Shown: positions 1,449-57,816, numbered from the stretch's first letter. The stretch is 64,000 nt of DNA from Candidatus Pacebacteria bacterium UBA6180 (GCA_002422165.1 DITQ01000008.1:125082-189081); one strand, 5' to 3'. Numbers and translations: made by a program. Notes: generated from the letters alone by a model not told the origin.

Positions 1449-2972
1449 TTAAAGCTCAGCAGATTTGGGTAGAAAGATGAAAAATCTGCCCTCTCCGTCA
1501 CTACCATTGATAACCTGATTAGCTTGGTGCTCCCCCATGTCATCAAATTTACTGGCTACGACAATGGTGTGAGGTTTTTCTAAATCACTCTGATTAATTT
1601 GATCGGCAAAGAAAAAGAGGTTAAGAATGCCGCCATGGTAAGCAATCGGACTCAATTCAAAAGCAAATAAGGCGTAAATATAAGGGTGTTGATAGTCGCT
1701 AGTAAAAACTATTTGGTCAACTCCCGAGCGATCCATTTGCTTTAGGTAGTGAAAAGTTTCTAAGTAAGCATCGACAAAATCGTCACTACTGCGCAATGGG
1801 TAATCTTGATAATAATGACGCAAGTAAAAGCCGGTAATTAGCAAATAAGCACCAAGTACCAAGCTCGTAAATAGGGCTCGCTGACCATTGAGTGCTTGCC
1901 AAATGGCCCGAAAAGCCAAAACCACCCAGAGAATAATGCCTGGTAGAGCCAGTAAACTACGGTTACTACTTGCCAAGCCTTCGGAAATTACAGCCGGCAA
2001 GAAGCCTAAAACCGTCATTGCTAAGGCTAGGATGAACAAAGCTTTATCTTTGTGTCGCCAAAAAAGGTAGCAAATCATCAAGACAAGAGAAAGTGGCTCT
2101 AAGACACCGAAGCGACCGTCGCCGTGGCGAAAATTACCCAAGTTTTTGCCAAAAATTAGGAAGTCAAGCGACAAATAACTCAGGCTATTATTCAGAAAAA
2201 CAACTGAGGTTTCCAATAAGCCCTGATTAGTAGCAAAAATAGTTGAGCTGGCTCTGGTTAAACCTTGAGCAAACAAGGCATCGTGAATAAAAGGAGCCAA
2301 AAGCAATAAACCCCAAAATCCTGCCCAGATGAGTTGTGATAATCTCCCGCGCAGTAGAGGCCAGTAAGCAAAAAGCAAAAAAATAAACAGAAGCGGCGTA
2401 GTAACCTTACTACTGTGATAGGCATAAAAAGTTAGTGAAGCCAGAGAAACCGCCAAAAGTAAGTTGCCAATTTTCGCCAAGCGCAAATAGCGATAGAAAA
2501 AGTAAAGTGCAAAAAGTAACAAATTGAGCGCTAAGCCAGATTCGAAAGCCAAGCGGCTGTAATGTATGTGCCAAGGGGAGATCGCCAATAAGAATGCAGC
2601 TAAAAGCGCCCACTTATGACGGTGGCGATCGCGACTAAAGACCTCACCAAAGAGCAAATAAATCCCTAAAACTGCCAAGACACCGTGTACTGCAAAAGGC
2701 AAGCGCACCGCCCACAAATTCATCCCAAAAAGTGCGGTTGCTAAGCCACTCTGATAAATGGCCAACGGCGCCTTGTAATCGCCAAAGGAACGAAAACTCA
2801 CTGGCAATCTCTCTAGCCACTCATCGCGCCTGGTGTTAAAAATTGCAAAGCCATTGTAGCCGATGGCTGCCTCATCCCAAGCCATGCCCATAGGCACTTT
2901 GCCCAGCTGATAAAATCTTAGCCCACAAGCCAGCAATAAAACCAGGGCTAGAGGAATGATTTTTTTGAGCAT
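1449..2972 (-). CDS. GT-C fold membrane glycosyltransferase, PMT/ArnT-like (GT39/GT83-type, PMT_2-like)
   Basis: Multi-TM protein. N-terminal loop motif RFYQLG...WDEAAIGYNGFAI...RDEWLERLP...FGDYKAPL, i.e. the DE motif of polyprenyl-P-sugar dependent GT-C enzymes. Paralogous to 11694-13340, 13333-14877 and 14867-16540. Confidence 0.75.
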   Translation of the reverse strand: MLKKIIPLALVLLLACGLRFYQLGKVPMGMAWDEAAIGYNGFAIFNTRRDEWLERLPVSFRSFGDYKAPLAIYQSGLATALFGMNLWAVRLPFAVHGVLAVLGIYLLFGEVFSRDRHRHKWALLAAFLLAISPWHIHYSRLAFESGLALNLLLFALYFFYRYLRLAKIGNLLLAVSLASLTFYAYHSSKVTTPLLFIFLLFAYWPLLRGRLSQLIWAGFWGLLLLAPFIHDALFAQGLTRASSTIFATNQGLLETSVVFLNNSLSYLSLDFLIFGKNLGNFRHGDGRFGVLEPLSLVLMICYLFWRHKDKALFILALAMTVLGFLPAVISEGLASSNRSLLALPGIILWVVLAFRAIWQALNGQRALFTSLVLGAYLLITGFYLRHYYQDYPLRSSDDFVDAYLETFHYLKQMDRSGVDQIVFTSDYQHPYIYALFAFELSPIAYHGGILNLFFFADQINQSDLEKPHTIVVASKFDDMGEHQANQVINGSDGEGRFFIFLPKSAEL

Positions 2973-2988
2973 TTTTTGATTTGATTTC

Positions 2989-3852
2989 TCAACGCATCTT
3001 AATAAACCAATAAGGCTGCCAAAGTAAAAATGCTAGTTTCTGCCAAAAATTAGCATTTTTCCAAGTAAATTTTTTGGCATTGCGCCAACTAATCTCACGA
3101 ATTTTCTTCTCACCAAAAACACTCTGGTTGGTAGTTTCGTGATTGTGATCAACTTGAGCCCGAGGTTCAAATAAAACCAAGTAGCCTCTTTTTTTTGCTT
3201 GATAAGAAAGATCGATGTCTTCCCAGTAGGCTGGATAGTAGCGCTTGTCGAAGCCGCCAATTTCTTCAAAAAAAGACTTGCGAAACATGGCACTGCCACC
3301 GCTTGCCCAGGCAGTCTCACCAGCCGACATATCTTGGTGACGACTGTGCAAAAACATGCCACGCTCAAACCATAGTATATTGCGTCCACCAATCTCGCCC
3401 AGGTGGGTTTCGTGTTCGAGACAACCCACCGCAAAAACCCTCGGCTGTTCGAAGTTCAAGAGCAAAAATTTAAGACAATCTCGATGAGGAGCGACATCAT
3501 TGTTAATGAGAAAAACCAATTCGTTTCTAGCAATCTGGAACCCACGATTGGCCGAAGCGCCAAAGCGCTGATTTTCATGATTGATAAGTAGAATGACTTC
3601 AATTTTTTTGGAATTTTTTTGGTAGCTACCAAGGTAGTAATCAACTGCAAAATCTGCAAAAGGTTTTTGCTTGACTTTGAAATTTTGTTTAAACCAAGCT
3701 AAAGTGTCGTCTTCTGGGCCGCTAGCATCATCAATCACAATCAGCTCATCGCCATCACGCATGCAGTCAAAAACTGCTGCTAAATTCTTTTTGTAAAGGT
3801 GAACTCCTCGGTAGCTTGGAATGATGACTGAGACTTGGATTGAGTGAGACAT
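2989..3852 (-). CDS. Glycosyltransferase family 2
   Basis: VSVIIPSYRG...LIVIDDASGPEDDT with DxD-like region; typical GT-A/GT2 N-terminus. Confidence 0.7.
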   Translation of the reverse strand: MSHSIQVSVIIPSYRGVHLYKKNLAAVFDCMRDGDELIVIDDASGPEDDTLAWFKQNFKVKQKPFADFAVDYYLGSYQKNSKKIEVILLINHENQRFGASANRGFQIARNELVFLINNDVAPHRDCLKFLLLNFEQPRVFAVGCLEHETHLGEIGGRNILWFERGMFLHSRHQDMSAGETAWASGGSAMFRKSFFEEIGGFDKRYYPAYWEDIDLSYQAKKRGYLVLFEPRAQVDHNHETTNQSVFGEKKIREISWRNAKKFTWKNANFWQKLAFLLWQPYWFIKMR

Positions 3853-4953
3853 TTACTTGTCCAGCATGGTTAATAAAATTTTATTAAACTTGTCCTTGGA
3901 AAATTCTTGACTGCGAATTTTCACTTTTTGTGCCAAGGCTGTAAGCTTAGTTTTATTTTTGATCAAACCTAGAGTTTTGGCAAGACATGCGTCTTCCTCA
4001 TCCCACATGCAATCTTGTAATTTTGAACCTAAAATTTCTTTTTGACCACCTTTGTTAATCACCACTGGCACCACTCCTGCCGCCATGGCTTCCAGAGTAG
4101 AGATACCAAAATGCTCAGCTTTTTCTGGTTCGACATTCTCATCGATACCGTAGCCTGTAGCGTGCCAATAAATGCTTGCTCGCTGGTAATAATCAAGCAA
4201 GAGACCGCGATCAGCGTCATGAATTAGAGTAATTTTGAATTCACCAACTTGCGCCGCCACTTGATTAGCAAAATCTTGGTCCTCAGCTCTACCAATTAAA
4301 ATTAGCTCCCAGTTTTTCATGTCCTTTGGAGCAGTTTTAACTAATTTTTTAAAAAATTCCACAAGAACGTCCTGACGCTTGCTGTGCAGCTGACGAAAAA
4401 AGCGACCAACTGATAAAATCATTTGCTCTTTATGTGGTGGTTTTTCTAGGGGAGGCAGTTCCACATAGGGCTGGTGAACATAATCAATTTTGGTTCGCCA
4501 ATATTTTTCAATATAGTTCTTGGTGAAGTATGAGTTGGTATTTTTGACTGACCAATTAGCCAACTTGAGTTTTTCCAAGAAAGAAGATTTATCGAGAGGC
4601 AGCGGTACTTGGATGTGCAAAATATTTTTCTTGGCCAAAGAGAAAAAAAGGCTGCCATCGGTTTGATAATAAAGGCAATCAAATTGTCTAGTCCACAATA
4701 ATTTTTTTAAAAGATTGCTGCTTGTAAAAAGTGGCGTAGCGATAAACTCAATTCCCACCAAAGAACAGTCTAAAAACTGCTCATATTTACCTCTCATTTC
4801 TGTTGCCTCATCTAAACTTAGATCCTGAGTGTCACTAACTGCGATAAAAACCTGATGTCCTGCGGCAGCGGCTAGTCTGGCGCAGTCAAGCATGTATTTT
4901 TCACCACCCCCAGTATGCTTGGGCAAATAAGGTGAGTAAAAAGCAATTTTCAT
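3853..4953 (-). CDS. Glycosyltransferase family 4 (GT-B, retaining)
   Basis: C-terminal EX7E-type motif EHFGISTLEAMAAGVVPVVINKGGQKEIL. Confidence 0.75.
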   Translation of the reverse strand: MKIAFYSPYLPKHTGGGEKYMLDCARLAAAAGHQVFIAVSDTQDLSLDEATEMRGKYEQFLDCSLVGIEFIATPLFTSSNLLKKLLWTRQFDCLYYQTDGSLFFSLAKKNILHIQVPLPLDKSSFLEKLKLANWSVKNTNSYFTKNYIEKYWRTKIDYVHQPYVELPPLEKPPHKEQMILSVGRFFRQLHSKRQDVLVEFFKKLVKTAPKDMKNWELILIGRAEDQDFANQVAAQVGEFKITLIHDADRGLLLDYYQRASIYWHATGYGIDENVEPEKAEHFGISTLEAMAAGVVPVVINKGGQKEILGSKLQDCMWDEEDACLAKTLGLIKNKTKLTALAQKVKIRSQEFSKDKFNKILLTMLDK

Positions 4954-5774
4954 CTAAGCTTGCCTTCCTCGCGCCAAAGTTTCTTGATTGCTTGTTCTTC
5001 TTTTTCGTAACGCGCTTGGAGACTTGGTTTTTGTTGCAATTCCCAAACCTGAATGTAAACAATCATTCTATTCATGGCTTGCACTAGAGCTTCAATTAGA
5101 CCGGCCATGCCGTCTTTGTAGCCCTGATGTTTGAAGGCACGGCGATAAAACTCCATGACGCCTTTACGCAAAATTAGCGGCAAAGAAATTTTGCGCACTG
5201 TCGCTGCCTCTAAAGCTTTGGCTTCCTTAATCGTCCAATCAGCACTCTTGCGCAAATTATCCCGAGTGTTGCGGTGAGTTAGATGAAGCATTTTGTGCTG
5301 CAAACGCAATGCCTCACCAGTAAAAATAGGGCTTTCGTGAATTTCTCCTTGCCAACCAAGAAGTGCAGTTTTGTGAAATACTCTAGTTACTAAGTCATTT
5401 TGCCAATTACCATAAGCAAAGCGTTGCCCATAACAAACATTTTCGCGATTAATGGTCATTGCTCGAACGTCGTCTTGCTCTATATGCAACAGAATTTCTT
5501 TGGCTAGGGCTGGAGTAACTCGCTCATCAGCATCGATGTAAAAAAGCCAGTCAGTCTCGACTAATGAAGCAGCTTTCTCGCGCAATTTAGCAAAAGATTC
5601 ATGGCTAAAGCTGACCACTTTACAACCATAGTGTTCGGCAATTTTGCCAGTTCGGTCAGTTGAGCCAGTGTCAAGCACTATGATATTTTGACAGAAGCTT
5701 AAAGTATCTAAGCAGGCCTCCAACATCTGCCCTTCATTTTTAGCGATAATAACTGCACTTAAATTTGATTTCAT
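4950..5774 (-). CDS. Glycosyltransferase family 2
   Basis: AVIIAKNEGQMLEACLDTL...IIVLDTGSTDRT...FYIDADE (GT2 DxD). Confidence 0.7.
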   Translation of the reverse strand: MKSNLSAVIIAKNEGQMLEACLDTLSFCQNIIVLDTGSTDRTGKIAEHYGCKVVSFSHESFAKLREKAASLVETDWLFYIDADERVTPALAKEILLHIEQDDVRAMTINRENVCYGQRFAYGNWQNDLVTRVFHKTALLGWQGEIHESPIFTGEALRLQHKMLHLTHRNTRDNLRKSADWTIKEAKALEAATVRKISLPLILRKGVMEFYRRAFKHQGYKDGMAGLIEALVQAMNRMIVYIQVWELQQKPSLQARYEKEEQAIKKLWREEGKLR

Positions 5775-5786
5775 AATTTTAAAATT

Positions 5787-6710
5787 CTAGACTACCGCTT
5801 GCTTGCCCATTCTTCCGATAAAAACATCAATGACTGCCTTGCGCTCGCTACGACTACCACCCAGCAAACTATTAAGAGCCAATCGCAGTGCAGTTAATTT
5901 GTAGCGCCAAGGAGCATGACGCATAGCCAAAAAAATACGATTGCGGGTCTGATAATATTGCTGCAAGGTAGAGCCAGCTCCTCCAGACGAACGACCAATT
6001 TTATGGTAAACCACTGAGCTTGGACAATAAACTACTTTGAGCCCAGCCTCTTTTACTCTGAGACTAAAATCAACGTCTTCACTATAAAGAAAATAGCGGT
6101 CATCAAGACGACCCACTCGCTCAATCACCTCTCGACTAATCAGGGTGACACAACCAGTAGCATAGTCCGTCTCTATAATCTGGTCGAAGTGGCCACGATC
6201 TACTTCATCAATACCAATGTGATAAGAAAGTAGATTGGTCCAATCAACTTTACCGCCCACATACCAGAGAACTTTATGCCTCTCTGCTTCTTTATAGGAA
6301 TCATTAAAATATTCGAAACCACGGTGAAAATATATTTTTGGAGCAACAAGACCAATTTTTGGATCTTTCTTAGCTAAATTGTAGAGTTCTTGCAAAAATT
6401 CATTGTCCACGATCGTGTCAGAGTTGAGTAGCAAATAATAATCACTATCGTAAGTATCGATGGCGTGTTGAATGCCTAAATTGTTGCCACCAGAAAACCC
6501 CAAGTTACCGTCACTTAGCAGAAGTTCTACTTTGGGATTTTTTTGCAAAAAATCTTGACTAAATTTCAAAGTATCTTTAGAGCCGTTGTCAACCACAATG
6601 ATTTTGTAGTCAAAAGCAAAATGCTTAAGATCGGCCAAGGACTTGATCGCAGCCTTGGTCTCCTCTGGGGTATTGTAATTAACTATGATGATGGAAATAT
6701 GATTGGTCAT
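5787..6710 (-). CDS. Glycosyltransferase family 2 (rhamnosyltransferase-like)
   Basis: ISIIIVNYNTPEET...IIVVDNGSKD...LLNSDT...DDRYFLYSEDVDFSLR motifs. Confidence 0.7.
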   Translation of the reverse strand: MTNHISIIIVNYNTPEETKAAIKSLADLKHFAFDYKIIVVDNGSKDTLKFSQDFLQKNPKVELLLSDGNLGFSGGNNLGIQHAIDTYDSDYYLLLNSDTIVDNEFLQELYNLAKKDPKIGLVAPKIYFHRGFEYFNDSYKEAERHKVLWYVGGKVDWTNLLSYHIGIDEVDRGHFDQIIETDYATGCVTLISREVIERVGRLDDRYFLYSEDVDFSLRVKEAGLKVVYCPSSVVYHKIGRSSGGAGSTLQQYYQTRNRIFLAMRHAPWRYKLTALRLALNSLLGGSRSERKAVIDVFIGRMGKQAVV

Positions 6711-7630
6711 AATCTAAATTTTCTACGAAATGTAGCAAGCAACTTTCGCCAACCCTTGCTTTCTCGCGCCTCCAAATCTCTTACCCAATAGTTTAAATCT
6801 TTTTGGAAACGTCGCAAGTCGGCAAGAACCTTTTCTGGATGGCTAGTTTCCAGGGCAGCATCATTGCCCAGCAGGTCAAAAATTTTCATTTGCACAGTCA
6901 TCTGATAAGCAGCCTGCATAGCACTCATGTAAAAGCCGCGCGCACCATCCAGATAGCCTTGCTTCTGGAAAAATCTGCGCAAAAAATCATCGCTGAAAGC
7001 TTGCAGTAACGTGGAATTGCTAATAATGAAGTCTTTGGCCAAGATTTGGCTTTTCTGCTCTGCCTCAATGTCGGTGTAGCGATCAAAACGAGCCAAATAA
7101 TCCTTGGTGTCATCGTAATTGTGGTGCAAAATGGCCAATTCTTCTTCAGCTGGCAGAATTTCAGCTTCTTTTTTGGCGGCAATAATTGGTCGAGAGTGAA
7201 TGGCCTCTGACCAACTGACCAGCCCACGCTTGAAAAAACGCAGTTGATAATCTGGCCACCAACCTGTGTGTTGCATCCAATAGCCACTGACTATATTTTT
7301 GCGTGGTAGATAAAAAGCTTGAGATCCATCTAGTTTGGTCAGATCTTTTAGCTTGGTGGCCAGAGTGGGTGGAATTTCCTCATCGCCATCTAACACCAGG
7401 GTCCAGTCTTGCGTCGCTTTTTCTAGGGCAAAATTACGGACTGGCTCGACAAAACGGCTGTCTTGAGGATATTCATAAATTTTACTGCAATATTTTTTGG
7501 CTAATTTGACTGTCTCATCTGTGCTTTTGATGTCCACTAAAATTATTTCTTTAGCAAATTGTACGGACTCCAAAATACGAACAATGGTTTTCTTAGAATT
7601 CTTACTGATAACAACTACTGAAATAGACAT
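6707..7630 (-). CDS. Glycosyltransferase family 2
   Basis: MSISVVVISKNSKKTIVRILESV...ILVDIKSTDET...VLDGDEE. Start moved to the ATG at comp. 7628-7630 (M11 of the track ORF), which better fits the divergent neighbour. Confidence 0.65.
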   Translation of the reverse strand: MSISVVVISKNSKKTIVRILESVQFAKEIILVDIKSTDETVKLAKKYCSKIYEYPQDSRFVEPVRNFALEKATQDWTLVLDGDEEIPPTLATKLKDLTKLDGSQAFYLPRKNIVSGYWMQHTGWWPDYQLRFFKRGLVSWSEAIHSRPIIAAKKEAEILPAEEELAILHHNYDDTKDYLARFDRYTDIEAEQKSQILAKDFIISNSTLLQAFSDDFLRRFFQKQGYLDGARGFYMSAMQAAYQMTVQMKIFDLLGNDAALETSHPEKVLADLRRFQKDLNYWVRDLEARESKGWRKLLATFRRKFRL

Positions 7631-7639
7631 ATTAATAGT

Positions 7640-8386
7640 ATGATAGCAGTTGTCATGCAAAAACTTAAGTCTCTGTCTGTTTTCTTCCCTGTTTACAACG
7701 AAGAAGCAAATCTAGAAATTTTAATTGATCAAGCTGCTCGCATCATCCCTACTCTAGCTAAAAAATACGAATTGTTGATTGTCGACGATGGTAGTTTAGA
7801 TCAAAGTGCCACCATTGCCAAACGCCTATGTAAAAAATATTCTCAAGTGCACTTAATTTCACACCCTCAAAATTTGGGTTACGGAGAAGTGCTTAAAACT
7901 GGTATCAAAAAGGCACAATACCAATGGATTTTCTGGACTGACAGTGATTTGCAATTTGATCTAAACGAGTTAGCGCATTTCGTGAAAGCCAGTCAAAATT
8001 CTTCGGCGATGATCGGTTTTCGAAAGAAAAGGTCTGAGGGCTTACGAAGACAATTAAACGCCAGTCTTTTCAAAATTTACATCGACCTATTGTTTCGTTT
8101 GCACGTCAAAGATATTGATTGTGCCTTTAAATTAATTCGTGCTGATTTATTAAAATCTCTAAAACTCAATTCTGGCAGTGCCTTTACTAGTGCTGAGATT
8201 CTCTATCGACTCAAGAAAAAAGGTGTGAAATTCAAGCAAATTGGAGTCAACCACTACCCACGTCTCTACGGCCGAGCAACAGGCTCCAACTTCAAAGTTG
8301 TCATCAAGGCTTGCTACGAAGCACTGACTACATATTTAAATATCAAGCTCTCTTCTCTAAAATGGACTGAGGAAGCCAAAAAATGA
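7640..8386 (+). CDS. Dpm1/ArnC-like GT2 (polyprenyl-phosphate sugar synthase-like), soluble
   Basis: LSVFFPVYNEEANLEIL...LLIVDDGSLDQSATIAKRL...TDSDLQFD. Immediately upstream of, and overlapping, a GT-C gene. Alternative start at 7655. Confidence 0.7.
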   Translation: MIAVVMQKLKSLSVFFPVYNEEANLEILIDQAARIIPTLAKKYELLIVDDGSLDQSATIAKRLCKKYSQVHLISHPQNLGYGEVLKTGIKKAQYQWIFWTDSDLQFDLNELAHFVKASQNSSAMIGFRKKRSEGLRRQLNASLFKIYIDLLFRLHVKDIDCAFKLIRADLLKSLKLNSGSAFTSAEILYRLKKKGVKFKQIGVNHYPRLYGRATGSNFKVVIKACYEALTTYLNIKLSSLKWTEEAKK

Positions 8387-20344: not shown

Positions 20345-20347
20345 AAA

Positions 20348-46385: not shown

Positions 46386-46396
46386 AGATGAGGAAT

Positions 46397-47176: not shown

Positions 47177-47240
47177 TTCCTATTTGTGTTTGTTTAATTT
47201 ATATTTTTACAACCAATTTCGCACCAGCTGTTTTTTGCTT

Positions 47241-47269: not shown

Positions 47270-47282
47270 AGCCTAGCAAAAA

Positions 47283-52303: not shown

Positions 52304-53800
52304 ATGGTCAGAAATTACTTTCGCCGCCACCCCATCCGCACCAGAAGAGCTTTGGAGATTTTGCCTGGCGCCTTTTCCTGGTTTTTGATCCTTTTTCCGA
52401 TCTGGGGCTCCTTCGTAATTCCACAAGCCGTCGCCTACTACGTGATTATTTTCGCCGTTTATTGGCTGTACCGCTCATTGATGCTGACTTTTTTCGCCAC
52501 TATCTCGCACTTCAAAATTCGCGCTTTCAGCAAATATGATCACATTCCTGAACTCAAGGCGCGTTTCAAGGACAAGTGGGACCAAATTCACCACATCATC
52601 GTTATTCCGACTTACCAAGAACCAGTCGCAACGTTAGAAAGAACGCTGGAAGGCCTAAGCAAGCAAACTTTTCCAAAAAGCAATCTTCACATCATGCTCT
52701 CTTTCGAAGAACGAGAAGGGGCAGTGGTTGATGAAAAAGCCAAGGTATTGCTCAAAAAATTTGGCAGAGTCTTTGGCCACCTCTGGGTCAGCAAACACCC
52801 CGACGTCGTCGGCGAGATCAAAGGTAAATCTTCCAACACTTGCTATGGCGCCAAAGCTGCCAAAGCGCTTTTAGTTGACCAAGAAGGGATGCCAATCGAA
52901 AACATCACCATCACCAGTGAAGATGCGGACGCCATTTTTCACCCCCACTATTTTTCTTACCTGACCCACTCTTTCCTAACTAGCGAAAAGCCTTACAACC
53001 GCAGCTGGCAGGGCGGAATTAGTTTCTACAACAATATCTGGCGCGTGCCTGCGCCGATTCGCGTCTTGGCTGCCATTCAATCAGTAATGCAGATTTACAT
53101 TTTGTCACGCAAAGATCGCCTGATTAATTTTTCAACTTACTCGACTACCCTCAAGCATGTCGACGAAATTGGCTACTGGGACACCGACGTTATTCCTGAG
53201 GATTACCGGCTTTTCTTCAAATCTTACTTCGCCAAAAAAGGCGACTTCGAGGTCGAGCCGATTTATCTACCCATCTACGCTGATGCTGTTCAGGCCGATG
53301 GTTTCTGGCGCACAATGCACAACCAATATGAACAAATCAAGCGCTGGGCCTGGGGAGTTAGTGACGACGCCTACATCATTCGCCAGTATGTCTTGACTGA
53401 AGGTTTGCCTTTTTGGGATAAAACTATTCGCGTCCTTAAGGTTATAGAAGACCATTTCCTCTGGCCAGTCAACTGGTTTGCGGTAACCGTTTCTGCCATG
53501 TTGCCCCCCCTGCTCAATGATGAATTCAACCGCACTATCATCGGTAAAACTTTGCCTCAAGTCACCTCCACTTTATTGACCTTGTCGCTGATCGCTATGC
53601 TGACCATCTTCATTATTGATTCAAGCAATCGCCCCGCGCACCACAACAAGCGCGGTTTCTTTTCCTACCTAATGCAGCCGCTTGAATTCATTTTAATACC
53701 GGTGATTGGCTTTTTCTTCTCTGCCTTACCAGGCATTGACGCTCACACTCGGCTGATGCTTGGTAAATACATGGAGTACAAGGTAACGGAAAAAGTCTAA
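52304..53800 (+). CDS. Processive membrane GT2 glycan synthase (cellulose/chitin/hyaluronan-synthase-like)
   Basis: N-terminal TM helices; IIVIPTYQEPVATLERTL; ITSEDADAIF (DxD); QIKRWAWG (QxxRW); C-terminal TM bundle. Confidence 0.7.
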   Translation: MVRNYFRRHPIRTRRALEILPGAFSWFLILFPIWGSFVIPQAVAYYVIIFAVYWLYRSLMLTFFATISHFKIRAFSKYDHIPELKARFKDKWDQIHHIIVIPTYQEPVATLERTLEGLSKQTFPKSNLHIMLSFEEREGAVVDEKAKVLLKKFGRVFGHLWVSKHPDVVGEIKGKSSNTCYGAKAAKALLVDQEGMPIENITITSEDADAIFHPHYFSYLTHSFLTSEKPYNRSWQGGISFYNNIWRVPAPIRVLAAIQSVMQIYILSRKDRLINFSTYSTTLKHVDEIGYWDTDVIPEDYRLFFKSYFAKKGDFEVEPIYLPIYADAVQADGFWRTMHNQYEQIKRWAWGVSDDAYIIRQYVLTEGLPFWDKTIRVLKVIEDHFLWPVNWFAVTVSAMLPPLLNDEFNRTIIGKTLPQVTSTLLTLSLIAMLTIFIIDSSNRPAHHNKRGFFSYLMQPLEFILIPVIGFFFSALPGIDAHTRLMLGKYMEYKVTEKV

Positions 53801-53840: not shown

Positions 53841-55427
53841 ATGAAATTCATCGAACTGCTCAAACGTGCCGACCGCTATTTCGACCGCCAGACACCAATT
53901 CTGGTTTTGTTTTTGCTTATTTTGGCTTTGCGCTTGCCTAATTTTTTCGAACCTTACTGGTACGGCGATGAAGCCATCTACCTGACATTAGGCACTGCTT
54001 TGCGTGAGGGTGGCGCGCTTTACACCACCATTATCGATCACAAGACTCCTCTCATTTATTATTTGGCGATGGTACCTAATCAGTTTTACTTCCGCTTGCT
54101 CAACTTAGTTTGGATGTTGGTAACCACCGCCTTGTTTTTCAAATTTGCCAAAACTTTGTTTAAGAAAACTATTTGGGCCTGGTTGGCAACTTTGGTCATG
54201 GTGCTTTTGACCACCTTGCCGTGGCTGGAGGGTCATATTCCCAATGGGGAATTGTTTGTCATGGGTTTTGTCATGGCAGGGGCCATTTTGTTTACCAAAA
54301 GCGATGTTTGGAAACTATTTTTTAACACCAAAAAAACTACCTTTGTTCGTAATTCGCGCCAAAAAGAAATTTGCTATCTTCTAAGCGCTGGCGCTTTCAT
54401 GGGACTGGGCATTTTGACCAAAGTCCCGGCCATCTTGGACGTGGCTGCTTTTCTAGCTATTTTCTGGCTCATTTTGGCTGGCCAGTTTTTCAACCCTCAA
54501 ACCAAGGCTAAAGAGTTAGGGCAAACTTTTACTTGGTTGCTCAAAAGAGGCTTGATTTTTATGACTGGCTTGCTGCTGCCATTGCTCGCTTCAGTAGTCT
54601 ACTTCGTCGCTGTTGGTAGTGGCCAAGACTACCTAGATTATGGTTTGCTCTACAACTTTCGCTACAGTCAGTCTTGGTCGCTCGATCTAGGCAATGAACT
54701 GCTTAATTTCGCTTTTAGCATGCCGGGCAAAACCATCATCTTGCTGATAGTAGTGATGCTCATCACCCTGAACGTGCGCAAGCTTAAGAAAAGAACTCAA
54801 TTTATCTGCCTCTATTTCCTCTTCACTCTCTATTCTGTGTTGTTGTCTAGCAGACCTTACCCGCACTACTTCATCCAGATGGTGCCAGCTTTGGCTTTGT
54901 TACTTATTGATTTACTGCAAAACTGGAAAGAAGTTAAAGGAACTGCTCTCAAAATCGGCTTAATCGCTGTAACTGCCTATGTAATGCTTAGCCTGGGTTT
55001 TAAACCATATTCAACTGGAGAATATTATAAGAAATTTTGGCAATTTGCCACTTTGAAAATTACCCAAGAAGAATATGAAAACTCCTTCGACAGCAATGTC
55101 AAAGACAACCGTGAAGTCAGCAGGCTTATTCATGAGATGGGGGTCAAGAAAATTTTCATCTGGGGAACCAATCCTCTCCTTTATGCACAAAGCAAAACTG
55201 TACCCACCTCGCGCTTCACTGTTGCTTTTCACATCAAGGACTTCGATGATCAGGCTAGAACTTTTTCTCAGATCGAACGCGAAGAGCCAAAATTAATCGT
55301 CGTCATGAAAAACGAGCGCGACAGCTTCCCGCAACTAGAGGCTTATCTTAGTAAGTATTATCTGCCCAATACCCAGTTTGATAGAATGGTCTTATATCTA
55401 AGACAAGAACTACCTGAGATAAAATAA
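53841..55427 (+). CDS. GT-C membrane glycosyltransferase, ArnT/PMT-like
   Basis: LRLPNFFEPYWYGDEAIYLTLGTAL...DHKTPLIYY (DE motif), about 12 TM helices. Confidence 0.7.
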   Translation: MKFIELLKRADRYFDRQTPILVLFLLILALRLPNFFEPYWYGDEAIYLTLGTALREGGALYTTIIDHKTPLIYYLAMVPNQFYFRLLNLVWMLVTTALFFKFAKTLFKKTIWAWLATLVMVLLTTLPWLEGHIPNGELFVMGFVMAGAILFTKSDVWKLFFNTKKTTFVRNSRQKEICYLLSAGAFMGLGILTKVPAILDVAAFLAIFWLILAGQFFNPQTKAKELGQTFTWLLKRGLIFMTGLLLPLLASVVYFVAVGSGQDYLDYGLLYNFRYSQSWSLDLGNELLNFAFSMPGKTIILLIVVMLITLNVRKLKKRTQFICLYFLFTLYSVLLSSRPYPHYFIQMVPALALLLIDLLQNWKEVKGTALKIGLIAVTAYVMLSLGFKPYSTGEYYKKFWQFATLKITQEEYENSFDSNVKDNREVSRLIHEMGVKKIFIWGTNPLLYAQSKTVPTSRFTVAFHIKDFDDQARTFSQIEREEPKLIVVMKNERDSFPQLEAYLSKYYLPNTQFDRMVLYLRQELPEIK

Positions 55428-55430: not shown

Positions 55431-55811
55431 ATGGAGCTAACTTTTCGAAGTGAAACCAAAACCAAAAACTGGCGCTATCTGCTTTTTTTACCCAAAGAGC
55501 TGCGACCATTAGGAGTCTTGACTCTTGGAATTAGCTTGATCATGTTGTTGATCAGCTTAGCTTTTTACTTTCCCTTGCAGAATCAAGTCCCGCTTTTTTA
55601 TTCACTGCCGAGCGATCAGCAGCTAGTTGATAAAAAATTCCTTTTTATCCTGCCAACTTTATCTATCCTCATCAATTTTTTTCACATGCTGATCATCAAG
55701 TTCAATAAAGAAATTCATGAATATGTATTAAAAATGTTCGTGCATCTAACTTTCCTGCTGCAAATTTTGCTTTTGGCGATTCTGCTTAGAATCATTATAA
55801 TAGTTACCTAA
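55431..55811 (+). CDS. Small integral membrane protein (hypothetical; about 4 TM)
   Basis: 126 aa, hydrophobic; sits between the GT-C and phosphotransferase genes. Confidence 0.45.
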   Translation: MELTFRSETKTKNWRYLLFLPKELRPLGVLTLGISLIMLLISLAFYFPLQNQVPLFYSLPSDQQLVDKKFLFILPTLSILINFFHMLIIKFNKEIHEYVLKMFVHLTFLLQILLLAILLRIIIIVT

Positions 55812-56869
55812 TGTGGTCCTTTACTTTGAGTTTCTTTTTGGCGGTGTTGCTTGCTCCACTCGTGATTTATTTCTATCGTAAAAACGCTTGGCTGGATGAC
55901 CCAGAAGTCAACCTTCACGCCAAAAAAACTCATCGTGAAGCCGTGCCGCGCGGTGGAGGAATAGTCATTTTTTTGGCTACTTTCCTAGCAGCAGCCATGC
56001 TGCTAGATTTTGACAAATATTTGTTGGCGATTTTTCTTGGCGCCTCTATTTTGACTTTTGTTGGCCTGCTTGACGATATCCTTGATCTCAATCCATATTT
56101 TCGCCTATTCACCGGTCTTTTTGCTGCCTTGATCGTAGTTGGCGCCGGCATCGGCATCGCCTACGTCAGCAATCCTTTTGGTCCTGGAGTCATTCACCTC
56201 GATCAACCGCGTCTTTACTTCGAGTTGTTTGGGACTGATCATTCTATCTGGCTACTCTCAAGTTTGTTTGCCATTTTTTTCATCGTTTGGAACATGAACA
56301 TCATCAACTGGGCCAAGGGTGTCGATGGCCAGCTACCTGGTTTTGTGGCCGTTTCCTGTCTTTTTATTGCCATTTTGGCGGGCCGTTTCGTCGATGCGCC
56401 GACACAGTTTAATGTCGCTAATTTAGCTCTGATCGTCAGCGGCGCTTTTGCAGGCTTACTAGTCTGGAATTTCTACCCACAGCGTATTATGCCTGGCTAT
56501 GGAGCGGGCTCTCTGGCGGGCTTTTTCTTGAGTGTCTTGGCAATTCTCTCTGGAGCCAAGGTCGCCACTATGCTGATGGTGCTGGCGGTGCCGACTGCAG
56601 ACGGTTTGTTTACCATCTTGCGGCGCTTGCTAGCCGGCAAATCACCTTTTTGGGGCGACCGCGGCCACTTGCACCACAAGCTGATGGACTACTACGGCTG
56701 GGGCAAGCGCCGCATCGCCATCTTTTATATCCTAAGCAGCACTGCTCTTGGAGGACTCTCACTTTTACTTGACAGCACTGGCAAACTCATTGCCATCATC
56801 ACCACCACTGTCATTGTCTTTGCTTTTTTGATATATACTAAGCTTGCTAGCAACAATAAATCAAAATGA
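55811..56869 (+). CDS. Polyprenyl-phosphate N-acetylhexosamine-1-phosphate transferase (WecA/TagO/MraY family)
   Basis: DDPEVNLHAKKTHREAVPRGGGI (compare WecA DKPNYRKRHQG.IPLVGG), NMNIINWAKGVDGQLPG (compare NAFNMVDGIDGL), 352 aa with about 10 TM helices. Confidence 0.75.
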   Translation: MWSFTLSFFLAVLLAPLVIYFYRKNAWLDDPEVNLHAKKTHREAVPRGGGIVIFLATFLAAAMLLDFDKYLLAIFLGASILTFVGLLDDILDLNPYFRLFTGLFAALIVVGAGIGIAYVSNPFGPGVIHLDQPRLYFELFGTDHSIWLLSSLFAIFFIVWNMNIINWAKGVDGQLPGFVAVSCLFIAILAGRFVDAPTQFNVANLALIVSGAFAGLLVWNFYPQRIMPGYGAGSLAGFFLSVLAILSGAKVATMLMVLAVPTADGLFTILRRLLAGKSPFWGDRGHLHHKLMDYYGWGKRRIAIFYILSSTALGGLSLLLDSTGKLIAIITTTVIVFAFLIYTKLASNNKSK

Positions 56870-57816
56870 ACAATCCGCTCTGGCTACTCATCAAATCTGC
56901 CCGCCCCAAGCAGTGGCTAAAAAATTTTGCCCTTTACGCTGCGCTAGTTTTTTCTGGCTTTTTCTTCTATCAGGAGGCTGGGCAAGCACCTTATTTCGTG
57001 ATCGTCACCTACGCTTTTTTGATTTTTTGTGTCCTGACTTCAAGTATTTACTTAATCAATGATCTGATCGATATCGAATCGGACCGCAAACACCCTTTCA
57101 AGAAAAACCGCCCTTTGGCCGCTGGCAGTTTGCCCGTACCCATCGCCGTTTTTAGCGTGGTCACTGGCTTGGCGATAGTTTTTTTTCTGTCTCTGAATTT
57201 GCCGGTTTTCTTCAAAATCTTAGCTTTTGCTTACTTCATCTTGCAAATTCTCTACTCGACCCATCTTAAAAATTATGCCATTTTTGACATTGTGGCCATT
57301 GCCCTAGGCTTCTTGATCCGCGTCTACGCCGGTGCAGTAGTGGTCAATTTGCACATGAACGTCTGGTTTTTGCTAACGGTGGTATCTGTGTCGCTCTTCA
57401 TGGCTGTGGGCAAGCGGCAAAGTGAACGCACCTTGCTTAGCAGTAGCCACGTCGAGTTTGCCCGCAAGAGCCTCGATCGTTATAGTCCGCGCCTGCTCGA
57501 CCAGTATACTTCGATGTTCGCCACCTCGACTTGGCTAACTTACGCCATTTTCACCTTCCAAAGCTATACTGGTAGCGTTAACTTACTCTACGAGAAATTT
57601 CCCGAGCTCTACTTCATCTTGCCAAAAACTCTCCAGTCACAAAAGCTACTGATGCTGACTTTGCCCTTCGTAATTGTCGGGGTGATGCGCTATTTGCAGC
57701 TGATTTATGAAGAAAATAAAGGCGAGGCTCCAGAGGATGTCCTACTCAAGGATCGAACTTTGCTAACCACGGTCTTTCTGTGGTTTGCGGCAGTGATTTT
57801 TGTAATATATGCTTGA
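56866..57816 (+). CDS. UbiA-family prenyltransferase, decaprenyl-phosphate phosphoribosyltransferase (DPPR synthase)-like
   Basis: RPKQWLKNFALY..., YLINDLIDIESDRKHPFKKNRPLAAG (NDxxDxxxDR plus K..RP.AAG), about 8 TM helices. Confidence 0.6.
   Translation: MNNPLWLLIKSARPKQWLKNFALYAALVFSGFFFYQEAGQAPYFVIVTYAFLIFCVLTSSIYLINDLIDIESDRKHPFKKNRPLAAGSLPVPIAVFSVVTGLAIVFFLSLNLPVFFKILAFAYFILQILYSTHLKNYAIFDIVAIALGFLIRVYAGAVVVNLHMNVWFLLTVVSVSLFMAVGKRQSERTLLSSSHVEFARKSLDRYSPRLLDQYTSMFATSTWLTYAIFTFQSYTGSVNLLYEKFPELYFILPKTLQSQKLLMLTLPFVIVGVMRYLQLIYEENKGEAPEDVLLKDRTLLTTVFLWFAAVIFVIYA

What the first reader, a model, noticed from the sequence alone, without database searches (positions are those of the whole stretch)
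1449..57816. Exceptional concentration of polyprenyl-phosphate-sugar-dependent (GT-C) glycosylation machinery: at least 10 GT-C enzymes, 5 Dpm1/ArnC-like synthases, flippase, LCP ligase
Ten or more GT-C integral-membrane glycosyltransferases occur within 57 kb (1449-2972, 8383-11701 x2, 11694-16540 x3, 26510-28063, 28835-30019, 29988-31484, 53841-55427), possibly an 11th at 63725-64000. Each plus-strand GT-C gene or pair sits directly downstream of a Dpm1/ArnC-like GT2: 7640-8386 before 8383; 25336-26535 before 26510; 28060-28815 before 28835 and 29988. A fifth Dpm1-like gene (62980-63735) lies next to the partial GT-C-like fragment at 63725. This is the ArnC/ArnT or Ppm1/Pmt logic (cytoplasmic lipid-linked sugar donor plus periplasmic/extracytoplasmic transferase) repeated at least four times. 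The same window also holds Wzx, LCP, WecA-like, a processive GT2, GT4s and four nucleotide-sugar enzymes. The acceptor (protein O-glycosylation as in PMT, or a wall glycopolymer as in LCP/WecA) cannot be read from sequence. A locus this redundant for extracytoplasmic glycosyl transfer is not a described standard pathway.
Basis: partly seen in the sequence, partly recalled or inferred. Interest (0 to 1): 0.8.

Follow-up and report, generated by a model that had tools for sequence, protein, structure and literature searches.

The report
Clustered lipid-linked sugar transferases, CPR bacterium
A tiny-genome "candidate phyla radiation" bacterium devotes about a quarter of this 64-kb stretch to ten membrane enzymes that add sugars outside the cell, each set next to the enzyme that makes its lipid-linked sugar donor. 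The mechanism is a known kind, but its density, and its conservation across the lineage, point to an undescribed surface glycan.

Summary
The core observation holds. All ten proposed GT-C membrane glycosyltransferases are supported:
- six by Pfam scores above cutoff;
- two by clear paralogy;
- two by AlphaFold models that match only GT-C structures.

Four, not five, GT2 genes are polyprenyl-phosphate sugar synthases (ArnC/GtrB/DPMS-like). Three of them sit directly upstream of verified GT-C genes. The "11th GT-C" is unverified.

The span is not one locus. It holds four modules separated by housekeeping genes.

The organism is a Microgenomates (Patescibacteria/CPR) bacterium. The nearest genome carries the NCBI label "TM6", which misleads.

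The core operon DPMS-like, PMT_2, GT2, MptA_B, PMT_2 is strictly conserved. In 44 of 46 metagenomic loci with enough flank, the three upstream genes are in place.

The logic matches the published "multi-component transmembrane glycosylation systems" and the mycobacterial arabinan/mannan toolkit. The claim that this is "not a described pathway" therefore fails.

Most likely these genes assemble and decorate an LCP-anchored wall glycopolymer outside the cell. The acceptor is unproven.

Verdict: new members of a known kind, at unusual density. Interest is moderate.

The parts
1449..2972 (-). GT-C no. 1, family A (PMT_2/ArnT-like), WDEAAI motif after TM1
   Evidence: PMT_2 44.6 bits against a cutoff of 26.1. 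8 TM peaks. Motif.
2989..7630 (-). Five cytoplasmic Leloir GTs: GT2 2989-3852, GT4 3853-4953, GT2 4950-5774, GT2 5787-6710 (rhamnosyltransferase-like), GT2 6707-7630
   Evidence: Pfam. TIGR01556 partial hit for 5787. 6707 is closest to GmaR/SunS, not to ArnC/DPMS. No TM helices.
7655..8386 (+). Polyprenyl-phosphate sugar synthase-like GT2 (a), no TM helix; 4-nt overlap with the next gene
   Evidence: Best PDB matches are ArnC 9bhc at 2e-15, GtrB and DPMS. DSD and D..AF motifs. Below all NCBIfam equivalog cutoffs.
8383..10119 (+). GT-C no. 2, family B (PTPS_related/YfhO-like)
   Evidence: PTPS_related 41.6 bits against a cutoff of 26.4; YfhO C-terminal hit. 10 TM peaks. 46% ortholog in CP011212.
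10052..11701 (-). GT-C no. 3, family B paralog
   Evidence: PTPS_related 25.7 bits, just under cutoff. BLASTP 3.5e-27 over the full length to 8383.
11694..13340 (-). GT-C no. 4, family A
   Evidence: PMT_2 51.3 bits. WDEAAI motif.
13333..14877 (-). GT-C no. 5, family A
   Evidence: PMT_2 38.3 bits. RDEAAL motif. Gene call of 514 aa.
14867..16540 (-). GT-C no. 6, family A (no Pfam hit)
   Evidence: BLASTP 5e-45 to 11694 and 3e-30 to 1449. WEEVAL motif. Aligned in A1.
16537..17985 (-). MOP/Wzx-type flippase, first gene of the minus-strand operon Wzx, C6, C5, C4, C3 (4-11 nt overlaps)
   Evidence: Polysacc_synt_3 173 bits. MOP flippase hits below cutoff.
18057..19166 (+). LCP (LytR-CpsA-Psr) glycopolymer-to-peptidoglycan ligase
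   Evidence: Pfam 84.6 bits. TIGR00350 66.9 bits against a cutoff of 62.3.
19322..21226 (+). RmlB (dTDP-glucose 4,6-dehydratase) and an RmlD-like reductase
   Evidence: TIGR01181 467 bits against a cutoff of 365. rmlD 146 bits, below the cutoff of 224.
22132..25325 (+). NDP-sugar dehydrogenase (Ugd-like), GDP-6-deoxy-D-lyxo-4-hexulose reductase (Rmd)-like, GDP-mannose 4,6-dehydratase
   Evidence: TIGR03026 433 bits; gmd 452 bits against a cutoff of 415. Rmd structure 2pk3 at 1.8e-50.
25336..26535 (+). DPMS-type polyprenyl-phosphate sugar synthase (b): GT2 fused to a 4-TM GtrA/DPMS domain
   Evidence: P. furiosus Dol-P-Man synthase 5mlz at 4e-40 over residues 1-339. Pfam GT2 plus GtrA_DPMS_TM. 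DAD and D..TGFR motifs.
26510..28063 (+). GT-C no. 7 (PMT_2, variant GDQGRD loop)
   Evidence: PMT_2 37.3 bits. Ortholog in 57 metagenome loci.
28060..28815 (+). Polyprenyl-phosphate sugar synthase-like GT2 (c), no TM helix
   Evidence: NCBIfam best hits are PgfS, TuaG and ArnC, all below cutoff. BLASTP 2e-21 to 7640. DFD and D..CGFK motifs.
28835..30019 (+). GT-C no. 8, MptA_B family (GT-C-B-like; conserved DxFNY loop)
29988..31484 (+). GT-C no. 9 (PMT_2, ADEAIY motif)
   Evidence: PMT_2 43.9 bits. Immediately downstream of the MptA_B gene in 35 of 54 loci.
31914..32588 (-). OmpR-type response regulator, conserved neighbour of the core module
   Evidence: Pfam. Found in 33 metagenome loci next to C9.
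52304..53800 (+). Membrane-embedded GT2 (2+2 TM), synthase-like
   Evidence: Glyco_trans_2_3 26.0 bits, just under the cutoff of 27. 4 TM peaks. Conserved position in L010 and L091.
53841..55427 (+). GT-C no. 10 (no HMM hit; GDEAIY motif)
   Evidence: AF2 pLDDT 90.9. Foldseek top 10 all GT-C, but with weak E-values (3e-3 to 0.1). Some homologs carry PF02366 PMT or are named ArnT family.
55431..55811 (+). Conserved 126-aa, 3-TM protein of unknown role (possible helper of a TM-less synthase, or a flippase)
   Evidence: Same position in L010 (38% identity) and L091. No Pfam hit. Not GtrA-like by hhalign.
55811..56869 (+). WecA/MraY-family polyprenyl-phosphate sugar-1-phosphate transferase
   Evidence: Glycos_transf_4 75 bits. 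TIGR02380 68 bits, below cutoff.
56866..57816 (+).
   Evidence: NF008978 208.9 bits against a cutoff of 207. M. tuberculosis enzyme 8j8j at 4e-36, with the NDxxDxxxD motif aligned.
61916..62983 (-). GT4 glycosyltransferase
   Evidence: Pfam Glycos_transf_1 plus Glyco_transf_4.
62980..63735 (-). Polyprenyl-phosphate sugar synthase-like GT2 (d), no TM helix
   Evidence: AglJ model 106 bits; Dol-P hexose transferase and PpgS hits. DPMS 5mlz at 1.6e-9 and ArnC at 1e-8.
63725..64000 (-). C-terminal 91 codons of a 612-aa polytopic membrane protein that overlaps the start of GT2 (d); GT-C status unverified
   Evidence: Full gene at L006 8173-10011, 10 TM peaks. No Pfam hit. 23 homologs only. hhalign against the four GT-C families is not significant.

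Best explanation
**What it is.** The window is a chromosomal segment of a Microgenomates (Patescibacteria/CPR) bacterium. It carries at least four multi-component transmembrane glycosylation systems, plus a polyprenyl-phosphoribose branch.

**Cytoplasmic face (inferred).**
- Four GT2 enzymes of the ArnC/GtrB/DPMS type load single sugars from nucleotide sugars onto polyprenyl phosphate. One of them is a full archaeal-type Dol-P-Man synthase homolog. It lies directly behind the GDP-D-rhamnose genes GMD and Rmd.
- A UbiA-type enzyme loads phosphoribose from PRPP.
- A WecA-like enzyme and a set of Leloir GT2/GT4 enzymes build a polyprenyl-diphosphate-linked primer or backbone.

**Transfer across the membrane (inferred).** The lipid-linked intermediates are flipped by the Wzx-type MOP protein, possibly by the fused GtrA/DPMS membrane domain, and possibly by small membrane proteins.

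**Outer face (inferred).**
- Ten GT-C enzymes of at least five sequence families transfer the sugars one at a time onto the growing glycan.
- An LCP ligase attaches that glycan to peptidoglycan.

**Shown here.** The protein families, the folds, the motifs, the gene order and its conservation.

**Inferred.** The donors, the flipping step, the acceptor, and the assumption that all ten enzymes serve the same polymer.
For: - **Acidic D/E-E motif** directly after TM1 in six of them.
- **Four GT2 genes** are closest to ArnC, GtrB and DPMS and carry the catalytic motifs.
- **Tight packing:** overlaps or short gaps in 7655-8386 / 8383; in 25336 / 26510 / 28060 / 28835 / 29988; and in the minus-strand operon Wzx, C6, C5, C4, C3 (coordinates).
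- **DPPR-synthase homolog** scores above the NCBIfam equivalog cutoff and matches PDB 8j8j at 4e-36.
- **GMD and Rmd** lie directly upstream of the DPMS-like gene.
- **LCP, Wzx, the WecA-like gene and RmlB** sit in the same modules.
- **Module II order** is kept in 44 of 46 (upstream genes) and 35 of 54 (downstream gene) metagenomic loci, at 34-75% identity and GC of 28-50%.
- **Module III order** is kept in L010 and L091.
- **Published scheme:** a TM-less GT-A, a small 3-TM helper, a Wzx flippase and a GT-C, acting on LCP-attached rhamnose polysaccharides (PMC8035078). The pentofuranose variant is also published (PMC11127046).
Against: - No biochemical data exist for any of these proteins or for the organism's wall.
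- All four synthase-like GT2 genes score far below every NCBIfam equivalog cutoff, so no sugar can be assigned.
- Three of them lack the membrane anchor typical of GtrB and ArnC.
- No stand-alone GtrA-type flippase was found. The conserved 126-aa protein is not GtrA-like.
- No DprE1/E2 epimerase and no DPPR phosphatase lie within the window or within about 10 kb past its high-coordinate end. Only about 1.6 kb could be seen before its start.
- The LCP gene lies in module I, while the conserved modules II and III could serve a different acceptor.
- PMT_2, PMT and MptA_B families also include protein and lipoglycan glycosyltransferases.
Confidence: 0.6

Rival explanations
1. Most of the GT-C enzymes are protein O-glycosyltransferases, like Pmt in actinobacteria or PgfM/GtrB-dependent systems in streptococci. 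They would decorate Ser/Thr-rich regions of surface proteins, pilins, lipoproteins or an S-layer, rather than a wall polysaccharide.
For: - The family names are PMT_2 and PMT.
- The best NCBIfam hit for two synthases is PgfS, the synthase of a streptococcal protein-glycosylation system (PMC12041528, listed).
- The Wzx protein has a weak hit to an O-glycosylation flippase model.
- A sortase and a lipoprotein-like protein with Thr/Pro-rich ends lie a few kb beyond the window end.
Against: - PMT_2 is a broad family. It includes ArnT and the wall-polymer enzymes GacL, GtlB and CsdD/F (PMC8035078).
- The PgfS and Wzx hits are far below their cutoffs.
- LCP, WecA-like, RmlB/D and five Leloir GT genes in the same modules point to a polymer.
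- No PMT_4TMC or MIR domains occur in the window's proteins.
Confidence: 0.2
2. The conserved core module (DPMS-like, PMT_2, GT2, MptA_B, PMT_2) builds a membrane-anchored lipoglycan. This would resemble lipomannan/LAM made by MptA/MptB/PimE in Corynebacteriales, or glycosylated LTA made by YfhO/GtlB. It would be independent of the LCP-linked polymer.
For: - C8 is in the MptA_B family and resembles PimE, ALG3 and PIG-M structurally.
- The synthase is a Dol-P-Man synthase homolog.
- Family B is YfhO/PTPS_related.
- The module is a strictly conserved core trait rather than a variable antigen locus.
- It is separated from the LCP gene by trmD and the Rml genes.
Against: - No PimA/PimB-type genes, inositol-related genes or LtaS-type genes occur in the window.
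- GMD and Rmd upstream suggest a deoxyhexose rather than mannose.
- Fold similarity among GT-C-B enzymes does not fix the acceptor.
Confidence: 0.15
3. This is an ordinary cytoplasmic EPS/O-antigen-type cluster. The GT2 genes would be ordinary Leloir transferases, and the large membrane proteins would be polymerases, ligases or transporters rather than GT-C glycosyltransferases.
For: - Wzx, Rml genes, GT2 and GT4 genes are typical of such clusters.
- Region 1-17 kb differs in gene content from the closest genome, as O-antigen loci do.
- The 612-aa protein at the window end has no GT-C signature.
Against: - No Wzy_C or O-antigen ligase hits, and no transporter hits, for any of the ten proteins.
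- GT-C HMM hits, motifs and structural matches support all ten.
- The four GT2 genes specifically resemble ArnC, GtrB and DPMS and carry their motifs. The other five GT2 genes do not.
Confidence: 0.03

Closest known systems
Multi-component (three-component) transmembrane glycosylation systems of Gram-positive wall polymers: GacI/GacJ/GacK/GacL of S. pyogenes, CsbB/GtcA/YfhO, GtlA/GtlB, and L. lactis CsdAB/CD/EF (PMC8035078)
   Same: - A GT-A synthase makes a C55-P-sugar, a flippase (GtrA- or Wzx-type) moves it, and a PMT_2 or YfhO-type GT-C acts outside the cell.
- The synthase and GT-C genes are adjacent.
- A TM-less synthase and a Wzx flippase match the GAC variant.
- The acceptor polymer is LCP-attached and Rml genes are nearby.
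- Several pairs per genome are known (three in B. subtilis, three in L. lactis).
   Different: - Here ten GT-C enzymes of at least five families lie within 57 kb of a CPR genome. Near-complete contigs of related CPR genomes are only about 0.75-1.1 Mb.
- Five GT-C genes have no adjacent synthase: four in one operon behind Wzx (C3-C6), plus C1, which stands alone.
- No stand-alone GtrA was found.
- One synthase is of the archaeal DPMS architecture.
- None of the proteins reaches an equivalog cutoff for a characterised enzyme.
Mycobacterial/corynebacterial arabinogalactan and LM/LAM machinery: WecA, UbiA (Rv3806c) DPPR synthase, Ppm1, Emb/Aft/Mpt/PimE GT-Cs, Lcp1. The gene layout is from my own knowledge; the structures are 8j8j, 9dm7 and 6x0o.
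   Same: - The enzyme toolkit is the same: a WecA-type primer enzyme, a DPPR-synthase homolog (4e-36 to 8j8j), a polyprenyl-P-hexose synthase, many GT-C enzymes including an MptA_B-family member, and an LCP ligase.
- The GT-C genes are clustered.
- Much of the assembly is inferred to be extracytoplasmic.
   Different: - No DprE1/E2, Rv3807c-type phosphatase, Glf/GlfT or Emb-type CBM domains were found in the window or in the flanks that could be seen (about 1.6 kb before its start, about 10 kb past its end).
- The GT-C enzymes are small (394-578 aa) and only remotely related to the mycobacterial ones.
- The organism is a CPR bacterium, not an actinobacterium.
Pentofuranose three-component systems (Citrobacter youngae O1/O2: PPPRS-PRP, MATE flippase, GT136 GT-C; PMC11127046)
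   Same: A UbiA-type polyprenyl phosphoribosyltransferase is encoded two genes from a GT-C (C10). A MOP-superfamily flippase lies in the same region.
   Different: - No fused or adjacent phosphoribose phosphatase, and no epimerase.
- The flippase gene is 39 kb away.
- GT136 membership of C10 was not tested.
- The module also contains a WecA-like enzyme and a membrane GT2.
ArnC/ArnT lipid A aminoarabinose pathway and GtrA/B/C O-antigen glucosylation
   Same: ArnC is the top solved relative of GT2 (a). The GT-C enzymes are ArnT-like PMT_2 proteins. A Ugd gene is present.
   Different: No ArnA, ArnB or ArnD homologs were seen among the genes scanned in the window. No GtrA gene. Scores are far below the ArnC equivalog cutoff (72 against 529 bits). 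From my own knowledge, not tested here, CPR bacteria are thought to lack LPS, so there would be no lipid A to modify.

Membership tests
GT-C fold glycosyltransferases | Polytopic integral membrane protein (about 7-13 TM helices) | tested here: met
   7-10 hydropathy peaks in all ten proteins. The AF2 models of C8 and C10 are helical bundles.
GT-C fold glycosyltransferases | Acidic (DxD, DE or modified) motif in the first extracytoplasmic loop after TM1 | tested here: met
   W/R/G/A-D/E-E directly after TM1 in C1, C4, C5, C6, C9 and C10. Variants: GDQGRD in C7, DxFNY in C8, HDF/HDG in C2 and C3. The outside location of the loop is inferred from hydropathy only.
GT-C fold glycosyltransferases | Significant match to a GT-C clan HMM (PMT_2, PTPS_related/YfhO, MptA_B) | tested here: met
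   - Above cutoff for six.
- MptA_B precomputed for C8.
- C3 is 0.7 bit under cutoff, and C6 is supported only through paralogy.
- C10 is supported only through homologs that carry PF02366.
GT-C fold glycosyltransferases | Three-dimensional GT-C fold | tested here: met
- C10: Foldseek top 10 all GT-C, probability 0.99-1.0, E-values 3e-3 to 0.1.
GT-C fold glycosyltransferases | Uses a polyprenyl-phosphate-linked sugar donor on the outer face of the membrane | not testable with these tools
   Inferred from adjacency to synthase-like GT2 genes.
Polyprenyl-phosphate glycosyltransferases (DPMS/GtrB/ArnC type GT2) | GT-A domain with DxD, whose closest characterised relatives are DPMS, GtrB or ArnC across the whole catalytic domain | tested here: met
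   - 7640: ArnC 2e-15 over residues 9-233.
- 25336: DPMS 4e-40 over residues 1-339.
- 62980: DPMS 1.6e-9 over residues 14-234.
- 28060: through NCBIfam hits to PgfS and ArnC, and BLASTP 2e-21 to 7640.
- Motifs.
Polyprenyl-phosphate glycosyltransferases (DPMS/GtrB/ArnC type GT2) | C-terminal transmembrane anchor | tested here: not met
   Only 25336 has TM helices (the GtrA_DPMS_TM domain). 7640, 28060 and 62980 have none. From my own knowledge, TM-less members exist (GacI with GacJ, mycobacterial Ppm1 and PpgS, eukaryotic DPM1), so this does not exclude the function.
Polyprenyl-phosphate glycosyltransferases (DPMS/GtrB/ArnC type GT2) | Score above an equivalog cutoff that would fix the sugar | tested here: not met
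   All NCBIfam hits are far below cutoff, for example ArnC 72 against 529, PgfS 71 against 500, AglJ 106 against 325.
Three-/multi-component transmembrane glycosylation system | Synthase gene adjacent to a GT-C gene | tested here: met
   Three times within the window with verified GT-C genes, and once with an unverified partner (coordinates).
Three-/multi-component transmembrane glycosylation system | Dedicated flippase (GtrA- or Wzx/MATE-type) | tested here: inconclusive
   - One MOP/Wzx gene and one fused GtrA/DPMS TM domain.
- No stand-alone GtrA.
- The 126-aa ORF is not GtrA-like (hhalign probability 0.2%).
Polyprenyl-phosphoribose (DPPR) pathway / pentofuranose systems | UbiA-type polyprenyl-phosphate phosphoribosyltransferase | tested here: met
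   NF008978 208.9 bits against a cutoff of 207. 8j8j at 4e-36 with the NDxxDxxxD motif aligned.
Polyprenyl-phosphoribose (DPPR) pathway / pentofuranose systems | Phosphoribose phosphatase and, for arabinose or xylose, an epimerase (DprE1/E2 or ORF13-type) | tested here: not met
   None was recognised among genes of the window, about 10 kb past its high-coordinate end, or about 1.6 kb before its start. The rest of the 236-kb contig could not be read.
LCP-dependent wall glycopolymer pathway | LCP domain protein plus a polyprenyl-phosphate sugar-1-phosphate transferase | tested here: met
   LCP above the TIGR00350 cutoff. Glycos_transf_4 75 bits. The WecA equivalog cutoff is not reached.

The most novel reading that the evidence does not exclude
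Microgenomates, and perhaps wider Patescibacteria, possess a lineage-defining envelope glycan that is probably essential. It would be assembled largely outside the cell from polyprenyl-phosphate sugars, in the manner of mycobacterial arabinan/mannan but evolved independently.

Its conserved parts would be:
- a core operon: GMD, Rmd, DPMS-like synthase, PMT_2, GT2, MptA_B, PMT_2;
- a WecA, DPPR-synthase and GT-C module.

These imply polyprenyl-P-D-rhamnose (or mannose) and polyprenyl-P-ribofuranose donors.

The variable GT-C array next to Wzx would diversify the surface for host or phage recognition. The orphan 612-aa membrane protein coupled to a synthase would be a new GT-C-like family.
Probability: 0.25. 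Interest if true: 0.7.

Novelty: new member of a known kind. Interest (0 to 1): 0.45.

Why it matters
Patescibacteria are usually described as stripped of polysaccharide and envelope biosynthesis (for example PMC7137472). Their surface chemistry, which must mediate their episymbiotic attachment, is essentially unknown. I found no paper in the searchable library that deals with GT-C enzymes in this group.

This window shows that a Microgenomates genome spends about half of a 64-kb region on glycan assembly, and about a quarter on GT-C enzymes alone. It also shows that a five-gene synthase/GT-C operon is conserved across many related metagenomic genomes.

That yields concrete, testable targets for the nature of the CPR cell surface:
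- a DPMS-like enzyme behind GDP-D-rhamnose genes;
- a DPPR-synthase homolog;
- an MptA_B-type transferase.

It also extends the known range of multi-component glycosylation systems. It does not reveal a new mechanism.

Tried and rejected
1. **Dependentiae (TM6) origin.** The closest genome, CP011212, is titled "candidate division TM6". I read the TM6 literature on a degenerate envelope. PMC7143001 places CP011212 in Microgenomates order UBA1400, and homologs are labelled Woesebacteria, Pacebacteria and Patescibacteria. The TM6 reading is dropped.
2. **A fifth Dpm1-like GT2.** Genes 6707, 4950, 5787 and 2989 were compared. Gene 6707 is GmaR/SunS-like, and none has the D..GF motif.
3. **An 11th GT-C.** The 612-aa protein has no Pfam hit, only 23 homologs, and no significant hhalign match to the four GT-C alignments (best probability 13%). 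It is left unverified.
4. **The 126-aa ORF as a GtrA flippase.** hhalign probability is 0.2%.
5. **Sequence searches of GT-C families against the PDB.** These gave nothing useful, so fold comparison was needed.
7. **Exact cluster look-up for organism names.** It returned no names.
8. **Promoter and terminator scan of 1-20 kb.** Not informative.
9. **The first look-up of 62980-63765.** It failed because the annotated start is 63735.
10. **Not used.** The one search of protein representatives, because its output carries no annotation or taxonomy and would not have changed the verdict.

Full report
**Observation**

The window (GC about 42%) is densely coded.

Ten large ORFs are polytopic membrane proteins with 7-10 hydropathy peaks. 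The evidence for each as a GT-C enzyme is as follows.

- Pfam places five in PMT_2 above the gathering score: 1449, 11694, 13333, 26450/26510 and 29988.
- Pfam places one in PTPS_related, with a YfhO-type C-terminus: 8383.
- 10052 falls 0.7 bit short of the PTPS_related cutoff, but is a full-length paralog of 8383 (3.5e-27).
- 14867 has no HMM hit, but is a paralog of 11694 (5e-45) and of 1449 (3e-30), and aligns throughout.
- 28835-30019 and 53841-55427 were uncertain, so I modelled them from alignments of database homologs. The models have pLDDT of 92.3 and 90.9.
  - For 53841, the ten best Foldseek matches are all GT-C, with probability 0.99-1.0. Their E-values are only 3e-3 to 0.1 and their TM-scores 0.2-0.5, so the support is weaker than for 28835. 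Some homologs carry PF02366 (PMT) or are named ArnT-family.
- Six of the ten carry a D/E-E motif immediately after the first TM helix, the GT-C hallmark.

So "at least 10 GT-C enzymes" stands. Together they occupy 15.6 kb, or 24% of the window.

**Synthases**

Four GT2 genes are specifically of the polyprenyl-phosphate glycosyltransferase type.

- 7655-8386: best solved relatives are ArnC (2e-15), GtrB and DPMS, aligned over the whole catalytic domain.
- 25336-26535: a strong homolog of the Pyrococcus Dol-P-Man synthase, including its four-helix membrane domain (5mlz, 4e-40, residues 1-339; Pfam GT2 plus GtrA_DPMS_TM).
- 28060-28815: best NCBIfam hits are PgfS, TuaG and ArnC, and it is 2e-21 to 7640.
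- 62980-63735: matches AglJ, Dol-P-hexose transferase, PpgS and DPMS.

All four have DxD. Three have the D..GF acceptor-loop motif, and 62980 has D..GM in its place. The other five GT2 genes lack both features. Gene 6707 is closest to GmaR and SunS.

I therefore count four synthases, not five. All scores are far below equivalog cutoffs, so no sugar can be assigned. Three of the four lack TM helices.

- 56866-57816 is a decaprenyl-phosphate phosphoribosyltransferase homolog. It scores 208.9 bits on NF008978 against a cutoff of 207. It matches the M. tuberculosis enzyme 8j8j at 4e-36, with the catalytic NDxxDxxxD motif aligned.
- 23413-24351 is a GDP-6-deoxy-D-lyxo-4-hexulose reductase (Rmd) homolog (2pk3, 1.8e-50).
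- 24348-25325 is GMD above its equivalog cutoff.
- GDP-D-rhamnose synthesis is therefore encoded directly upstream of the DPMS-like synthase.
- With RmlB, an RmlD-like gene and a Ugd-like dehydrogenase, there are five nucleotide-sugar enzymes.

**Layout**

The span is not one locus. It breaks into four modules.

- **Module I (1.4-19.2 kb).**
  - C1, followed by five Leloir GT genes.
  - Synthase (a) then C2 on the plus strand.
  - A minus-strand operon of Wzx, C6, C5, C4 and C3, with overlaps of 4-11 nt.
  - The divergently transcribed LCP gene.
- **Module II (19.3-31.5 kb).**
  - RmlB and RmlD, with trmD on the opposite strand.
  - Then Ugd, Rmd and GMD.
  - Then DPMS-like, C7, synthase (c), C8 and C9, all overlapping or within 19 nt.
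  - Then a response regulator.
- **31.9-52.3 kb.** Housekeeping genes: tRNA-Gln, DeoC, Ham1, DnaX, YbeY, GluRS, an S11 peptidase, TrkAH, AsnS/AspS, RmuC, MetRS and TatD.
- **Module III (52.3-57.8 kb).** A membrane GT2, C10, a 126-aa 3-TM protein, the WecA-like gene and the DPPR synthase.
- **Module IV (61.9 kb to beyond the window end).** A GT4, synthase (d), and a 612-aa polytopic protein of which only the tail lies in the window.

The 612-aa protein has no Pfam hit and only 23 homologs in 5.8 billion proteins. It has no significant profile similarity to the four GT-C families of the window. The "11th GT-C" is unverified.

**Organism**

The same genes occur on a 236-kb ENA metagenome contig and on JGI contigs.

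The nearest species representative is CP011212, an 853-kb complete genome. It is syntenic from Wzx to C8 at 60-92% amino-acid identity. Its NCBI title says "candidate division TM6". PMC7143001 lists it as Microgenomates order UBA1400, family PJMF01. Homologs of C8 and C10 are labelled Pacebacteria, Woesebacteria and Patescibacteria.

The window therefore comes from a CPR bacterium with a genome of roughly 0.75-1.1 Mb, judged from the contig lengths of relatives.

**Conservation**

A scan of metagenome contigs with the C8 family found 203 relatives. I analysed the best 80 loci.

- In 44 of 46 loci with enough upstream sequence, DPMS-like, C7 and synthase (c) lie immediately upstream.
- In 35 of 54 loci, C9 lies immediately downstream.
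- Rmd and GMD, and usually Ugd and trmD, precede them. A response regulator follows.
- Identities run from 34 to 75% for C8, and GC from 28 to 50%.

Module III keeps its order (GT2, C10, small protein, WecA, UbiA) in two relatives at 47% and 57% identity. One of these adds a PMT gene after UbiA.

By contrast, the block between C2 and Wzx differs in content between the window and CP011212. That genome also holds five large polytopic proteins there, but only two are clear orthologs.

So there are conserved core modules plus a variable GT-C array.

**Mechanism**

The arrangement matches the published multi-component transmembrane glycosylation scheme. In that scheme a GT-A synthase makes a C55-P-sugar, a GtrA- or Wzx-type flippase moves it, and a PMT_2 or YfhO-type GT-C transfers the sugar to a wall polymer outside the cell. 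One described variant has a TM-less synthase, a small 3-TM helper, a Wzx flippase and an LCP-attached rhamnose polysaccharide (PMC8035078).

The DPPR-synthase branch matches the pentofuranose three-component systems and mycobacterial arabinan synthesis (PMC11127046).

My best reading (confidence 0.6):

- WecA-like and Leloir GT enzymes build a lipid-linked primer or backbone.
- The four synthases and the DPPR synthase supply single-sugar lipid donors.
- The ten GT-C enzymes extend and decorate the glycan outside the cell.
- LCP anchors it to peptidoglycan.

Families, folds, motifs, order and conservation are shown. Donors, flipping and acceptor are inferred.

The rivals are not exclusive, because ten enzymes could serve several acceptors:

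- protein O-glycosylation (0.2), supported by PMT naming, PgfS-like hits, and a nearby sortase and Thr/Pro-rich lipoprotein;
- a lipoglycan, supported by the MptA_B family and the DPMS-like synthase (0.15);
- an ordinary cytoplasmic EPS cluster, which is essentially excluded (0.03).

**Comparison and novelty**

The closest systems are the Gram-positive multi-component systems and the mycobacterial AG/LAM toolkit.

The differences are:

- the density (ten GT-C enzymes of at least five families in 57 kb of a reduced genome);
- five GT-C genes with no adjacent synthase, four of them in one operon behind Wzx;
- an archaeal-type DPMS;
- no stand-alone GtrA;
- no DprE1/E2 or phosphatase near the DPPR synthase;
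- the CPR host.

From my own knowledge, the M. tuberculosis AG cluster has about six GT-C genes in about 35 kb. The density here is therefore high but not of a different kind.

Literature searches found no treatment of GT-C systems in Patescibacteria. General accounts describe reduced polysaccharide metabolism in the group.

I class this as new members of a known kind. It points to an uncharacterised, conserved CPR envelope glycan.

**Verdict**

- Observation: partly confirmed. The core is confirmed. The counts are corrected to four synthases, five nucleotide-sugar enzymes and ten GT-C genes, with the 11th unverified. The region is not a single locus.
- Interpretation: partly supported.
- Interest: 0.45.

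Noticed in passing
L003 (CP011212.1, 449860-470966): The NCBI record title calls this complete 853-kb genome "candidate division TM6". A published analysis places it in Microgenomates order UBA1400, family PJMF01, and its genes are 60-92% identical and syntenic to the window. The public label would mislead taxonomic reading of this window.
   Followed up: yes
window 63725-64000 (minus strand); full gene L006 8173-10011: A 612-aa protein with about 10 TM helices and a C-terminal soluble domain overlaps the start of a polyprenyl-P-sugar synthase-like GT2. It has only 23 homologs, no Pfam family, and conserved NWDxYQHQ and SDTFGFNSYPP loops. It could be an undescribed GT-C-like or polymerase-like family.
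   Followed up: partly
window 55431-55811 (+): A 126-aa, 3-TM protein sits in a conserved position between the GT-C 53841 and the WecA-like gene, in the window and in two distant relatives (L010, L091). It has no family and is not GtrA-like. It could be a GacJ-like helper of a TM-less synthase, or a small flippase.
   Followed up: partly
L006 3208-4083 and 5963-6940 (about 3-7 kb beyond the window end): A sortase gene, and a 325-aa lipoprotein-like protein with a signal peptide, a Cys, and Thr/Pro-rich stretches at both ends. In other bacteria this kind of sequence is O-glycosylated by PMT-type enzymes.
   Followed up: no
window 46386-47282: An ORF-poor gap of about 0.9 kb lies between divergent genes (AsnS/AspS-type tRNA ligase and an alpha/beta-hydrolase-like protein). 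It holds a strong GC hairpin followed by a U-run at about 46745-46790. No Rfam family reaches threshold; only sub-threshold leader or terminator-like hits appear. The fold z-score is -2.1.
   Followed up: partly
window 31514-32588; L008 12800-14094; L009 12912-14301: An OmpR-type response regulator follows the core GT-C operon in 33 metagenomic loci. Relatives have an HATPase_c gene between C9 and the regulator. The window has only a 142-aa ORF there, with no Pfam hit, so the kinase may be degraded or divergent.
   Followed up: partly
window 21442-22206 (-): The housekeeping gene trmD sits on the opposite strand inside the sugar-nucleotide/GT-C module. It keeps that position in most related loci, which is an oddly stable interruption of the operon.
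   Followed up: partly
window 32744-32992 (+), 33007-34294 (+): A DUF5665 protein and two small 4-TM proteins without any family lie just after tRNA-Gln, between the glycosylation module and DeoC. Their function is unknown.
   Followed up: no
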